Positions 6,803-9,209 of a stretch of DNA of 21,099 nucleotides are shown here, piece after piece. The stretch covers positions 1 to 21,099 of the forward strand of contig WAKA01000151.1 in NCBI GenBank assembly GCA_015523565.1. Reading direction: 5' to 3'. Each line of letters starts with the position of its first letter. The first letter of the stretch is position 1. The translations under genes were made by a program, and so were the position numbers. The notes beneath the pieces are model-generated. The model was not told the DNA's origin and made no database searches. It saw only the letters and a program-made list of their open reading frames with translations. Source of the DNA: Candidatus Heimdallarchaeota archaeon (lineage in GTDB: Archaea; Asgardarchaeota; Heimdallarchaeia; Heimdallarchaeales; Kariarchaeaceae).

Positions 6803-6969
6803 ACCTTATGCAAACACGGAATTTATTCTTATTAAACAATATGGAGTAAATAAAATATTAAGCAATGAATTAAAAGGCATTTCTTAAATATATATTTTTC
6901 TGTTTTCCCGATCCTAGTAATCCTACAATCTTTATATTATATATTTTGTTAGACTATAATTGTGATTTC

Positions 6970-8274
6970 ATGGGAGAAAAGAGATTAAAATCAAATCAAG
7001 ATGACGATCTTGTTGCTCAATTGATTGATGAAATTGGCGGCAATAAGCTGACCATTTCGTTTACGAATCCCAAAGCCCCCATATTCCTTAAAAAAAATGG
7101 GAGGGGACGCATTTCATCGATTACTTTCAACAAACCTGCCACAGTTGTTCCATCTTCAATCTTTCATTTCCCTAGTTTAGAAAGGCTTTTCTTGAAAATC
7201 AAACCTAAGGATTCAGTTGAATTGCAGAAATTTGTATCAGGCAATCTGAAAGAGTTTCAACTTGAATTGGTCAATAAAGGTAAGCATGTTAACGGATTGG
7301 AAAATCTAAAATCAGGAAATAATCTGGAATTTGTTAAAATCAAGAACATATTTAAATTGAAATCATCCAACCTTCCACCTGCAAAAAAAACAGTGATACA
7401 GGAATGTACATTGGAACTTAATTCACCAATCATCAGTGAATGGGTGATTCTAGACAATTCGACAATTCAAGGGTCTAAAAATTCTAAGAAGGAACTTGAC
7501 TCAAGAAATTGCAAAGGGTTAAGGATAATCAATACAAGGTTCATGTTGAAACAGCCTCTTTCCAAGTTGTTTTCAGGTGTTAGATCGTTGATTATAGCCA
7601 ATTCAGAATTTTCATACAAAAAACTTGAATTGGAACTTCTTCCATTAAATCAATTGATAATTGAAAATACAGAAATCGATCCACCAAAGTCATTGGCACA
7701 CACAAACCTAGAGAATCTTAGTTTATGCAATTTAAATTGGAAAAGACTCCCCTTGTTACCTCGATCGATTAAATCAATTGTATTAAAAGACCTTCCAGAT
7801 GTTAAGTTGTTCGAATCAATTTCTTCTGATGTCAAGCTTCATTATGAGAACGTGAAAGTCAAAAGCCAAAATGACCTATTGAAAAGATTGAATGGGATAA
7901 TATCAATTAACACATCAAAATTGGTGTGCTATGATGTTATCAAATATTGGCTTAAGTTCATTGATTCATGTCTTTATAGCTCTGCGAATAGAAGTTTAAC
8001 CATAAACAATAAAATGCATTTTTTGCGAAGGGATTTGAGATTCAAAGAAGAAAGAAAACCATCATGGGATGTAAGCCCAATGCCAGGTGAATTTATCATT
8101 ACCCCCATAAAAAACAAACGATATCACTATATAATGTTTGTTTTTTTGGATTTTGACACACAAATTTGGCCAGTGGCAAAGATTGAATTTAAGACACAAG
8201 ATATTAAACCTCTGATCAATGGATTGAAGGCAAAGGATTTTTATGTTGTAGAAGATGAAGAATTCAACATATAA
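6970..8274 (+). CDS. Degenerate leucine-rich-repeat-like protein
   Basis: LxxLxL-type units 'FPSLERLFL', 'NLKEFQLE', 'LNQLIIENTEI', 'NLENLSLCNLNWKRLPLLPRSIKSIVL'; ATG 6970 lies downstream of TATA-like CTTTATAT (TTG 6946 is the alternative start). Confidence 0.55.
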   Translation: MGEKRLKSNQDDDLVAQLIDEIGGNKLTISFTNPKAPIFLKKNGRGRISSITFNKPATVVPSSIFHFPSLERLFLKIKPKDSVELQKFVSGNLKEFQLELVNKGKHVNGLENLKSGNNLEFVKIKNIFKLKSSNLPPAKKTVIQECTLELNSPIISEWVILDNSTIQGSKNSKKELDSRNCKGLRIINTRFMLKQPLSKLFSGVRSLIIANSEFSYKKLELELLPLNQLIIENTEIDPPKSLAHTNLENLSLCNLNWKRLPLLPRSIKSIVLKDLPDVKLFESISSDVKLHYENVKVKSQNDLLKRLNGIISINTSKLVCYDVIKYWLKFIDSCLYSSANRSLTINNKMHFLRRDLRFKEERKPSWDVSPMPGEFIITPIKNKRYHYIMFVFLDFDTQIWPVAKIEFKTQDIKPLINGLKAKDFYVVEDEEFNI

Positions 8275-8370: not shown

Positions 8371-8471
8371 GGGCTTGTGGTGAAGTGGAATCACATTGGC
8401 CTTCGGAGCCAACGTCCCGGGTTCGAAACATTAAATTTTGCGGATTTGATGCGAATGTCCCGGCAAGCCCT
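8371..8471 (+). tRNA. tRNA-Arg(UCG) containing a 30-nt T-loop intron
   Basis: Acceptor GGGCTTG/CAAGCCC; D-arm GTGA-AGTGGAA-TCAC (G15, G18G19, Arg identity element A20); anticodon arm TTGGC-CTTCGGA-GCCAA with anticodon TCG at 8403-8405; T-stem CCGGG/CCCGG; T-loop TTCGAA|intron|T; CCA not encoded. Confidence 0.95.
8428..8457 (+). other. Non-canonical tRNA intron at position 59/60 (BHB motif)
   Basis: Central 4-bp helix TTCG/CGAA, 3-nt bulges AAA and TGT, flanked by the T-stem and the intron stem CATTAAATT/GATTTGATG. Cutting after the 2nd base of each bulge restores TTCGAAT. Confidence 0.92.
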
Positions 8472-8524
8472 TTCATTTTTCTGCAAAAACAGAGAGTTAA
8501 TAACTGATGAAACCGTTTAAAATA

Positions 8525-8590
8525 TGGCGATGAAGAAAAAACCCCAGAAGGAGCTTTTAGCAATGAATTCCACACGACAATTCTGAGCCA
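8525..8590 (+). ncRNA. Candidate box C/D guide sRNA
   Basis: Terminal stem TGGC/GCCA; box C ATGAAGA 8530-8536; 12-nt spacer; D' AGGA 8549-8552; hairpin GCT-TTT-AGC; C' ATGAATT 8563-8569; 13-nt spacer; box D CTGA 8583-8586. Both box pairs fit K-turn geometry. Confidence 0.68.
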
Positions 8591-8594
8591 ATTT

Positions 8595-9209
8595 TCAACC
8601 AACATATTTGATGGACATTAATTCCAAAATCTCACCTGCTGCTTTTATTAGAGCCATTATGACTTGAGCTCGTTTATGCATTCTAGAAAGTGCTTCGAAT
8701 TCTTTCCAATCATTTGAAGTTTTGAAGTAACCTGCCTCCACTTCCATTCCCTTTTCAACAACATTGTCTCGTAATTCTTCAATTCCACGAACTAGTTTCA
8801 ATGCGTCATCAAAACTTGTGTAAACAATTTTGATTGCTTCACCCAAGTTTTGGCTGGAAGTTTTTATTGCATCAGAAACAAATTTTATGTCTGCTGTAAA
8901 ATTACGTGGAAGGCTTTCATTGTATTCTTTGACAGTTCTTGCGGTTCGTGCGAATTCGTCCAAAATATCGTCAATCCGCCTCAGGAGTTTTGCACGGTCG
9001 AGGGCAAGATAGGGAACTGACTGTTGCGTCGCAAAATGCCTGTTAAGTTCATCACGCACCCTATCACCCTTTTCTTCCAAGTCAAGTACAAGCATGATTT
9101 TTTCCATATTAATTTCTGGACTGAAGATTATTTCGCTTATTAGTTTTCCCCCTTCAGAAATGAGATCTGCTAGTTCAAAGAATTTCTCTTTTTCTTCTTT
9201 TTTATTCAT
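8595..9209 (-). CDS. DUF47/PhoU-like phosphate transport regulator
   Basis: All-helical 204 aa with 'LEEKGDRVR' and 'RRIDDILD' motifs; immediately downstream of a PiT transporter, the usual DUF47 context. Confidence 0.85.
   Translation of the reverse strand: MNKKEEKEKFFELADLISEGGKLISEIIFSPEINMEKIMLVLDLEEKGDRVRDELNRHFATQQSVPYLALDRAKLLRRIDDILDEFARTARTVKEYNESLPRNFTADIKFVSDAIKTSSQNLGEAIKIVYTSFDDALKLVRGIEELRDNVVEKGMEVEAGYFKTSNDWKEFEALSRMHKRAQVIMALIKAAGEILELMSIKYVG

What the first reader, a model, noticed from the sequence alone, without database searches (positions are those of the whole stretch)
8519..8595. Unannotated double-K-turn box C/D sRNA immediately downstream of the intron-containing tRNA
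Seen: terminal stem TGGC/GCCA (extendable by AAAAT/ATTTT with one bulge), 3-nt bulge GAT, then GA-AGAA opposite TTCT-GA (tandem G.A pairs followed by Watson-Crick pairs). A second internal K-turn has D' AGGA, stem-loop GCT-TTT-AGC, bulge AAT and GA-ATTC opposite GAAG-GA. Box C to box D spans 57 nt with spacers of 12 nt (AAAAACCCCAGA) and 13 nt (CCACACGACAATT), matching archaeal C/D guide architecture. The +5 rule predicts 2'-O-methylation of a G for both guides (targets like CUG[G]GGUUU and UU[G]UCGUGUGG). Inference: it lies about 53 nt after the tRNA on the same strand, so it is either a dicistronic tRNA-sRNA released by RNase Z or driven by its own TATA-like TTAATAA (8497-8503).
Basis: partly seen in the sequence, partly recalled or inferred. 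Interest (0 to 1): 0.7.

Follow-up and report, generated by a model that had tools for sequence, protein, structure and literature searches.

The report
Conserved Asgard box C/D methylation guide RNA
This is a genuine but ordinary archaeal box C/D guide RNA gene, present once per genome across a Heimdall-group Asgard lineage, whose two guides aim at the catalytic centre of the large ribosomal RNA.

Summary
Window 8525-8590 (+) has a terminal stem, box C AUGAAGA, a 12-nt guide, D' AGGA, a 3-bp hairpin, C' AUGAAUU, a 13-nt guide, box D CUGA and the closing stem.

It is a real gene. Covariance models found one copy in each of 48 of 83 genomes of the class. Both guides are invariant in the genus while the flanks diverge. 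All four helices covary (89.7% of cells paired against 59% in shuffles, 0 of 500 shuffles as high).

The genome encodes L7Ae, Nop5 and fibrillarin.

Targets:
- The D guide pairs 10 bp with the 5' strand of LSU helix 89 and predicts Gm at own G2564 (E. coli 2459). Guide and rRNA change together between genera.
- The D' guide faces the P-loop CUGGGG in one fixed register in 42 of 45 orthologs and predicts Gm at the G2251 equivalent. In this genus only 6 bp remain, so activity of this half is doubtful here.

Transcription from its own promoter is favoured. The TATA-like block sits at -34 to -22 in the orthologs, and the tRNA neighbour occurs in only 2 genomes.

No Rfam family reaches threshold and no RNA data exist. 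It is a new member of a known kind. The canonical internal K-turn, where orthologs have a K-loop, is the only mildly unusual trait.

The parts
8497..8503 (+). TATA-like promoter element TTAATAA, preceded by CAGAGAG; 22-28 nt upstream of the terminal stem
   Evidence: the A/T block lies at -34 to -22 in 23 orthologs (100% A/T at -27 to -24). g11 copies carry CAGAG-TAATAAATAAAA at the same place. Function is inferred.
8525..8528 (+). 5' strand of the terminal (canonical) stem, UGGC
   Evidence: Pairs with 8587-8590. All 4 pairs show compensatory changes in 45 distinct orthologs; 98.3% of cells paired.
8530..8536 (+). Box C, AUGAAGA (consensus RUGAUGA, U5 to A)
   Evidence: UGA is near-invariant in orthologs (one ACGAUGU variant, G005). 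Position 5 varies with box D position 2: U.U, A-U, C.C, C-G.
8537..8548 (+). D' guide AAAAACCCCAGA; N+5 is C8544
   Evidence: CCCCAG pairs with LSU P-loop C2350-G2355 (E. coli 2248-2253). N+5 faces own G2353, which is E. coli G2251. Only 6 bp pair in this genus.
8549..8552 (+). Box D', AGGA
   Evidence: The GA is conserved in 44 of 45 orthologs (one CUAA); variants include AGGA, AAGA, CUGA, CGGA, CAGA, AUGA.
8553..8561 (+). Internal hairpin GCU-UUU-AGC, the canonical stem of the C'/D' K-turn
   Evidence: Compensatory changes within the genus and across the 14-15 orthologs that have a stem (92.7% paired). The U.G pair in G002 fits only the + strand.
8563..8569 (+). Box C', AUGAAUU
   Evidence: UGA is conserved. 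UUC 8568-8570 pairs with GAA 8547-8549 (helix 3).
8570..8582 (+). D guide CCACACGACAAUU; N+5 is C8578
   Evidence: 10 contiguous bp with own LSU 2560-2569 (E. coli 2455-2464, 5' strand of H89). The same site is the best hit in all 9 guide/LSU comparisons (8 distinct guides; G042 was tested against the LSU of same-genus G036), and guide and target change together.
8583..8586 (+). Box D, CUGA
   Evidence: Variants in orthologs: CCGA, CGGA, UUGA, AUGA, AGGA, with matching changes in box C position 6.
8587..8590 (+). 3' strand of the terminal stem, GCCA
8591..8595 (+). AUUUU: likely oligo-T termination signal (or non-conserved stem extension)
   Evidence: T-runs follow many orthologs. Inferred.
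8371..8471 (+). Neighbouring tRNA-Arg(UCG) with a T-loop intron, followed by a T5 run at 8476-8480; not part of the sRNA
Evidence: Rfam tRNA 28.7 bits. ARAGORN misses it. The neighbourhood is shared only with G001.

Best explanation
Window 8525-8590 (+) encodes a roughly 66-nt archaeal box C/D sRNA, probably transcribed from its own TATA-type promoter. Inferred mechanism: L7Ae binds the terminal C/D K-turn and the internal C'/D' K-turn, and Nop5 and fibrillarin complete the RNP. The D guide pairs with the 5' strand of LSU helix 89 and directs 2'-O-methylation of own G2564 (E. coli position 2459; the neighbouring U in genera with a 12-nt spacer). The D' guide is the family's guide for the universally important P-loop G (E. 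coli G2251, own G2353). In this genus it keeps only the 6-bp CCCCAG core, so its efficiency is uncertain. Both targets lie in domain V at the peptidyl-transferase centre, so a folding-chaperone role during LSU assembly is also plausible. Shown here: the sequence architecture, conservation, covariation, guide-target complementarity and co-variation, and presence of the protein genes. Inferred: transcription, RNP assembly and the methylations themselves.
For: - Architecture: exact at the stated coordinates, with C/D-box Rfam hits on the + strand only, below threshold.
- Conservation: three genus relatives keep both guides 100% while the flanks diverge. Model R1 found orthologs in other genera. 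Model R2 found one copy in 48 of 83 class genomes (f1 7/11, f2 29/31, f3 1/1, f4 3/3, f7 7/12).
- Covariation: in 10 sequences, 93.3% of cells paired against 64.5% shuffled, 0 of 500 shuffles as high. In 45 distinct sequences, 89.7% against 59.0%, 0 of 500, with 12 of 13 pairs changed on both sides, and slid controls reaching at most 52%.
- D guide: 10 bp with own LSU 2560-2569. The same site was the best LSU hit in all 9 guide/LSU comparisons (8 distinct guides), at 9-12 bp. LSU GUCGUG goes with guide CACGAC in g1; GUCGCG goes with CGCGAC elsewhere.
- D' guide: at one fixed register against the invariant P-loop, 42 of 45 orthologs pair from N+2 for at least 6 bp, and 33 pair for 8-9 bp. N+5 is C in 45 of 45. 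N+6 and N+7 vary only between C and U, both of which pair with G.
- Proteins: fibrillarin and Nop5 are adjacent on C56; L7Ae is on C95.
- Precedent: G2251-equivalent methylation by C/D sRNAs is predicted in three other archaea (PMC4644070).
- Promoter-like block at a conserved distance.
Against: - There is no transcript evidence; no RNA run is listed.
- Within this genome alone the complementarities are not significant. 213 of 2000 shuffled D guides reach 10 bp in the LSU, and 1927 of 2000 shuffled D' guides reach 6 bp.
- The D' duplex of 6 bp is below the 8-10 bp reported for efficient methylation (Yang et al. 2016, as cited in PMC7089733).
- The predicted D-guide site shifts by one nucleotide between genera (G with a 13-nt spacer, U with a 12-nt spacer).
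- Box C, C' and D' deviate from consensus.
- The SSU rRNA is missing from this MAG; SSUs of two genus relatives were used instead.
- Alignments A4 and A5 were fitted to the model's structure, which inflates pair counts somewhat.
Confidence: 0.87

Rival explanations
1. It is a single-guide sRNA in this genus. The D guide is active, while the D' half is a vestige that now serves only as the second L7Ae/Nop5 platform. P-loop methylation is then lost, inefficient, or done by something else.
For: Only 6 bp pair (CUGGGG) because N+8 to N+12 are all A. Efficient methylation needs 8-10 bp (PMC7089733 citing Yang 2016). A 6-bp match is not above chance.
Against: AAAAACCCCAG is invariant across four species and in genus g6 while the flanks diverge. 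The CCCCAG core keeps the exact N+5 register. A neutral vestige should drift.
Confidence: 0.35
2. The conserved A-rich D' guide of genera g1 and g6 has been retargeted to another RNA containing CUGGGGUUUUU that is not in the material available, such as a missing part of the MAG or a pre-rRNA spacer.
For: The full 11-nt block AAAAACCCCAG is conserved in two genera. The MAG is only 90% complete and lacks an SSU gene.
Against: There is no match of 7 bp or more in the own LSU, in the SSUs of G002 and G003, or in 37 tRNA loci. Most of the 16 near-full-length genomic matches (11-12 nt, G.U allowed) lie inside long ORFs, and only two lie outside one. The register on the P-loop is that of the whole family.
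Confidence: 0.1
3. The sRNA is the 3' part of a dicistronic tRNA-Arg/sRNA transcript, released by tRNA 3' processing, rather than an independent gene.
For: It is on the same strand, 53 nt downstream of the tRNA. The arrangement is shared with G001. tRNA-sRNA dicistrons are known in I. hospitalis, T. tenax and N. equitans (PMC7994747).
Against: A T5 run follows the tRNA directly (8476-8480). A TATA-like block sits at the conserved distance. No tRNA was detected by ARAGORN or Rfam within 1.5 kb of the sRNA in the other 12 ortholog loci checked. These two routes are not mutually exclusive.
Confidence: 0.12
4. The conservation belongs to the minus strand: a hairpin plus U-run that terminates or stabilises the convergent DUF47 (PhoU_div) gene ending at 8595.
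For: The minus strand folds to -16.8 kcal/mol with a 9-bp hairpin followed by U6. The DUF47 stop codon is 5 nt from the element.
Against: The fold is not unusual (z -1.27, 20 of 200 shuffles as good). The element recurs in dozens of genomes whose flanking sequence differs outside the genus. The U.G pair in G002 would be A.C on the minus strand. Box motifs and Rfam hits are on the + strand only.
Confidence: 0.02

Closest known systems
Archaeal dual-guide box C/D sRNAs (for example the Pyrococcus sR families, Sulfolobus and Pyrobaculum sRNAs; review PMC7994747)
   Same: About 60-70 nt long. C/D and C'/D' motifs with tandem G.A pairs, guides of about 12 nt, the N+5 rule, rRNA targets clustered at the peptidyl-transferase centre, and L7Ae/Nop5/fibrillarin genes present.
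   Different: No Rfam family reaches its threshold (best archaeal hits sR49 14 bits and sR39 12 bits, against 50 needed). The C'/D' motif is closed by a base-paired stem (a true K-turn) rather than the K-loop described as typical. Box C is AUGAAGA. The D' duplex is reduced to 6 bp.
C/D sRNAs predicted to methylate the P-loop G (E. coli G2251 equivalent) in three archaea (Dennis et al. 2015, PMC4644070)
   Same: The same target nucleotide and the same guide mechanism.
   Different: Homology to those sRNAs was not tested. Here the P-loop guide is combined with a helix 89 guide. I could not find the helix 89 site among the conserved hotspots listed there (H35, H61, H68-71, H90-93).
Protein-only or snoRNA routes to the same P-loop methylation (E. 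coli RlmB; yeast snR67 for 25S Gm2619), cited from my own knowledge and not tested here
   Same: The same universally conserved ribose methylation in the P-loop.
   Different: RlmB is a stand-alone enzyme. snR67 is a eukaryotic snoRNA with different partner guides, and no sequence relationship was shown.
Dicistronic tRNA-C/D sRNA genes (I. hospitalis tRNA-Ser, T. tenax tRNA-Pro, N. equitans tRNA-Val, plant tRNA-snoRNA genes; PMC7994747)
   Same: An sRNA on the same strand just downstream of a tRNA gene.
   Different: There is a 53-nt gap containing a T5 run and a TATA-like box. The linkage is not conserved beyond two species.

Membership tests
Archaeal box C/D sRNA | Terminal box C (RUGAUGA) and box D (CUGA) able to form a K-turn with tandem sheared G.A pairs | tested here: met
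   AUGAAGA 8530-8536 and CUGA 8583-8586. The box C UGA and box D GA are near-invariant in 45 orthologs (one ACGAUGU box C variant). Box C position 6 and box D position 1 covary: U-A 24, G-C 15, A-U 5.
Archaeal box C/D sRNA | Terminal stem juxtaposing boxes C and D | tested here: met
   UGGC/GCCA. All 4 pairs have compensatory changes; 98.3% of cells paired.
Archaeal box C/D sRNA | Internal C' and D' boxes forming a second L7Ae site | tested here: met
   AUGAAUU and AGGA, with conserved G.A pairs. Here the motif is closed by a covarying 3-bp stem. Orthologs in f2 have 2-5-nt K-loop linkers.
Archaeal box C/D sRNA | Two guide spacers of about 10-12 nt | tested here: met
   12 nt and 13 nt. Orthologs mostly have 12.
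Archaeal box C/D sRNA | Guide complementarity to rRNA or tRNA with the target at N+5 | tested here: met
   D guide: 10 bp on LSU H89, with guide and target changing together in all 9 guide/LSU comparisons. D' guide: fixed P-loop register, 8-9 bp in 33 of 45 orthologs but 6 bp here. The single-genome matches are not significant on their own.
Archaeal box C/D sRNA | Genome encodes L7Ae, Nop5 and fibrillarin | tested here: met
   PF01269 at 265.7 bits and PF01798 at 187.5 bits, adjacent on C56. PF01248 at 98.2 bits on C95.
Archaeal box C/D sRNA | Stable small transcript, L7Ae binding, and 2'-O-methylation at the predicted sites | not testable with these tools
   No RNA run holds the locus. Wet-lab assays are needed.
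Any curated Rfam C/D family (snoU54, sR49, sR39, snoR113, snoU2-30) | Score at or above the family's gathering threshold | tested here: not met
   Best hit snoU54 at 25 bits against 35; the others score 12-15 bits against 47-60. No hits at gathering level in the window or in 13 ortholog loci.

The most novel reading that the evidence does not exclude
In this Heimdall-group lineage the C'/D' motif has been converted from the archaeal K-loop to a stem-closed K-turn, as in many eukaryotic snoRNAs. Orthologs of one gene show both states, and two other candidate sRNAs in this genome share the 3-bp stem geometry. This could mark a shift of L7Ae towards Snu13-like K-turn-only recognition. Alternatively or in addition, the sRNA may act mainly as an assembly chaperone holding the P-loop and the 5' strand of helix 89, which in this lineage carries a 225-nt insertion at its tip, with methylation secondary.
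Probability: 0.12. Interest if true: 0.55.

Novelty: new member of a known kind. Interest (0 to 1): 0.3.

Why it matters
It adds a well-supported, single-copy C/D sRNA family to Asgard (Heimdall-group) genomes. I found no published C/D sRNA catalogue for these genomes, and Rfam finds nothing at threshold. The family predicts two ribose methylations at the peptidyl-transferase centre, one of them the universally conserved P-loop G. It also offers a natural series of orthologs in which the internal motif switches between K-loop and K-turn, the 3b.3n pair of the K-turn varies (U.U, A-U, C.C, C-G), and the guide length drops from 10 to 6 bp. That series is useful material for testing sRNP assembly and minimal guide length. 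None of this changes the known picture of archaeal rRNA modification.

Tried and rejected
- ARAGORN found no tRNA in the window. It finds only 18 tRNAs genome-wide, against 35 above threshold by Rfam.
- Rfam at gathering thresholds gave nothing.
- The own SSU rRNA is absent from the MAG. SSUs of G002 and G003 gave no guide match of 8 bp or more.
- No D' target was found in the LSU, the SSUs, 37 tRNA loci with flanks, or an extended-guide scan. Most near-full-length genomic matches lie in long ORFs.
- A scan for another P-loop guide with G.U allowed was too permissive (190 hits) and uninformative.
- The first crude C/D scan returned mostly coding GAUGA repeats. It also showed that G.U-tolerant runs of 9-12 bp are common by chance. 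This led to the shuffle test, which shows single-genome complementarity is not significant.
- Sequencing-run search: no RNA holder is listed; only DNA runs labelled as hydrothermal-vent metagenomes, one of which may be the source sample.
- Literature searches for C/D sRNAs in Asgard archaea returned nothing specific. Searches failed on term syntax.
- The genome contigs protein scan gave only a 37%-identical Heimdallarchaeota relative, so I did not establish the lineage name independently.
- Folding the LSU H89 insertion gave a stable structure (z -3.7), but I saw no clear bulge-helix-bulge motif.

Full report
**1. Observation**

- UGGC 8525-8528 and GCCA 8587-8590 form the terminal stem.
- G8529-A-U is the 3-nt bulge.
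- Box C is AUGAAGA, 8530-8536.
- A 12-nt spacer, AAAAACCCCAGA, spans 8537-8548.
- D' is AGGA, 8549-8552.
- The hairpin GCU-UUU-AGC spans 8553-8561, followed by A8562.
- C' is AUGAAUU, 8563-8569.
- A 13-nt spacer, CCACACGACAAUU, spans 8570-8582.
- Box D is CUGA, 8583-8586.

The tRNA-Arg(UCG) gene ends at 8471. ARAGORN misses it. Rfam scores it 28.7 bits against a threshold of 29.

Rfam at gathering thresholds finds nothing in the window. A permissive scan places five C/D-box families exactly at 8525-8593 on the + strand, the best being snoU54 at 25 bits, E 0.0055.

The + strand is almost unstructured (-7.7 kcal/mol, z +0.6), as expected for guide RNAs.

A strict pattern scan for this architecture outside long ORFs returns 2 loci in the whole 3.57-Mb genome, this one included.

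**2. It is a conserved gene**

The window is contig C151 of a 90%-complete MAG (3.57 Mb, 38.6% GC). Earlier notes call it a Heimdall-group Asgard archaeon. My only independent hint is a 37%-identical Heimdallarchaeota protein.

BLAST in 40 relatives found the element in all three same-genus genomes. In the alignment, both guides and all boxes are identical while the flanks are unalignable. Two of the three genus relatives (G002, G003) lack the tRNA neighbour.

A covariance model from these four copies (R1) found orthologs in other genera and families of the order. A second model from ten orthologs (R2) found one copy in 48 of 83 genomes of the class: f1 7/11, f2 29/31, f3 1/1, f4 3/3, f7 7/12, f5 0/22, f6 0/2. 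One genome had a second, weaker hit with different guides.

None of 13 ortholog loci matches an Rfam family at threshold, apart from the G001 tRNA.

**3. Structure**

The named structure has four helices: the terminal stem, the C/D non-canonical stem, the C'/D' non-canonical stem, and the internal stem.
- On the ten-sequence alignment, 93.3% of cells pair against 64.5% in shuffles (0 of 500 as high), and 10 of 13 pairs change on both sides.
- On 45 distinct sequences, 89.7% pair against 59.0% (0 of 500). 12 of 13 pairs change on both sides, and slid controls reach at most 52%.
- Examples of terminal stems: UGGC/GCCA, GAAGA/UCUUC, GAAGGU/ACCUUC, UGAGC/GCUCA, AUCGA/UCGAU, GGAG/CUCC.

These alignments were fitted to the model, which favours the structure somewhat. 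The MAFFT alignment of the genus alone already shows compensatory changes in the internal stem: GCU/AGC, GCC/GGC, GUC/GGC, GUC/GAC. The U.G pair in G002 is compatible only with the + strand.

The tandem G.A positions are near-invariant in both motifs (exceptions: D' CUAA in G022 and box C ACGAUGU in G005). The pair next to them in the C/D motif (box C position 5, box D position 2) is U.U in most copies, A-U here and in G007, C.C in G001 and G002, and C-G in G004.

The stem that closes the C'/D' motif is present in f1, in part of f4, and in G022. f7 copies have a hairpin set 5 nt away from C'. Most f2 orthologs have the usual 2-5-nt K-loop linker. The review PMC7994747 describes the K-loop as the normal archaeal state.

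**4. Targets**

The own LSU gene is on C157 (3278 nt). I numbered it by aligning to E. coli rrlH.

D guide:
- It pairs 10 contiguous bp (one G.U) with own 2560-2569, AGUUGUCGUG. This is E. coli 2455-2464, the 5' strand of helix 89.
- N+5 (C8578) faces own G2564, which is E. coli 2459.
- On its own this is not significant: 213 of 2000 shuffled guides do as well.
- The decisive evidence is comparative. In all 9 guide/LSU comparisons (8 distinct guides; G042 was paired with the LSU of same-genus G036), the best hit is this same site, at 9-12 bp.
- The sequences change together. Genus g1 has LSU GUCGUG with guide CACGAC. The other f1 genera checked, and f4 g9, have LSU GUCGCG with guide CGCGAC, or CGUGAC using a wobble.
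- With the 12-nt spacers of the other genera, N+5 falls on the next nucleotide, a U (E. coli 2460). The exact site is therefore G2564 here by the strict rule, with a one-nucleotide uncertainty.

D' guide:
- Its core CCCCAG is complementary to the P-loop CUGGGG (own 2350-2355; E. coli 2248-2253).
- At one fixed register, N+5 faces the second G, E. coli G2251.
- 42 of 45 distinct orthologs pair continuously from N+2 for at least 6 bp, and 33 for 8-9 bp.
- N+5 is C in all 45. N+6 and N+7 vary only between C and U, both of which pair with G.
- C/D-guided methylation of this nucleotide is predicted in three other archaea (PMC4644070).
- In this genus and in g6, g5 and g9, positions N+8 and beyond no longer pair (here all A), leaving 6 bp. 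That is below the 8-10 bp reported for efficient methylation (PMC7089733 citing Yang et al. 2016) and is not above chance by itself.

I found no alternative target in the LSU, the SSUs of two genus relatives, or tRNAs. Most near-full-length genomic matches lie in long ORFs.

**5. Machinery**

Nop5 and fibrillarin are adjacent on C56. An L7Ae-family gene of 127 aa is on C95.

**6. Transcription**

The tRNA is followed by a T5 run (8476-8480). TTAATAA (8497-8503), preceded by CAGAGAG, lies 22-28 nt before the stem.

In 23 orthologs aligned on the stem start, positions -34 to -22 are A/T-rich, and 100% A/T at -27 to -24. The g11 copies share CAGAG-TAATAAATAAAA at that place.

In the other 12 ortholog loci checked, neither ARAGORN nor Rfam detects a tRNA within 1.5 kb. 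Read-through from the tRNA is not excluded and has precedents (PMC7994747).

The 3' end abuts the stop codon (8595-8597, minus strand) of a convergent DUF47/PhoU_div gene, which is followed by a PiT phosphate transporter gene.

**7. Rivals**

A minus-strand terminator hairpin exists. Its fold is not unusual, and it cannot explain the strand-specific boxes, the U.G pair, or conservation in unrelated contexts.

The substantive open question is whether the D' half still guides methylation in this genus.

**8. Verdict**

This is a real, unannotated box C/D sRNA: a new family by Rfam standards, but an ordinary kind of archaeal gene. The mildly unusual features are the stem-closed internal K-turn, the variable 3b.3n pair, and the shortened P-loop guide.

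No expression data could be obtained.

Noticed in passing
L001 (G000:C157) LSU positions 2580-2804, i.e. C157:2962-3186: The own 23S gene carries an insertion of about 225 nt at the tip of helix 89 (between E. coli 2474 and 2475), about 15 nt downstream of the D-guide target. It folds stably (z -3.7). Relatives in f1, f3 and f4 have different sequence at the same place. Whether it is an intron or an expansion segment is undecided.
   Followed up: partly
L049, L050, L054, L061, L064, L065 (LSU genes of family f2): In f2 genomes the LSU is interrupted right after GGGGUAAC (E. coli about 2452, the core of the peptidyl-transferase ring). The exon resumes later with AACAGAGUUGUCGUGGG. This looks like an rRNA intron in the catalytic centre.
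   Followed up: no
G000:C9:11610-11682 (+), G000:C179:141-213 (-), G000:C143:7146-7210 (-): Three further convincing box C/D sRNA candidates in the same genome (terminal stems of 5-7 bp, canonical boxes). Two of them have a 3-bp stem between D' and C' with the same geometry as here, so the internal K-turn may be a lineage habit.
   Followed up: partly
L036:1501-1570 (-) (G033:C21:11091-11160): A second, weaker model hit in one f2 genome is a different C/D sRNA with the same UGGC/GCCA stem. Its D' guide pairs 10 bp with the LSU of same-genus G036 at CAAGGGUUAG (around position 647 of L050). It may be a paralog with new guides.
   Followed up: no
whole genome G000: ARAGORN with intron mode finds 18 tRNAs, while the Rfam tRNA model finds 35 above threshold plus 2 below. 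Many tRNA genes here evidently carry non-canonical introns.
   Followed up: no
window 8519-8597 (-): On the minus strand the same DNA forms a 9-bp hairpin followed by U6, just after the stop of the DUF47 gene. It could double as that gene's 3' end signal.
   Followed up: partly
window 6946-8274 (+): A 442-aa ORF upstream of the tRNA has no Pfam match at E 0.001.
   Followed up: no
G000:C84:22785-22835 (+): The sequence AUGAUGA ... CUGA, with C/D-like spacing, lies about 50 nt upstream of one of the two non-coding matches to the D' guide (CUCUGGGGUUUUC at 22879). It was not examined further.
   Followed up: no
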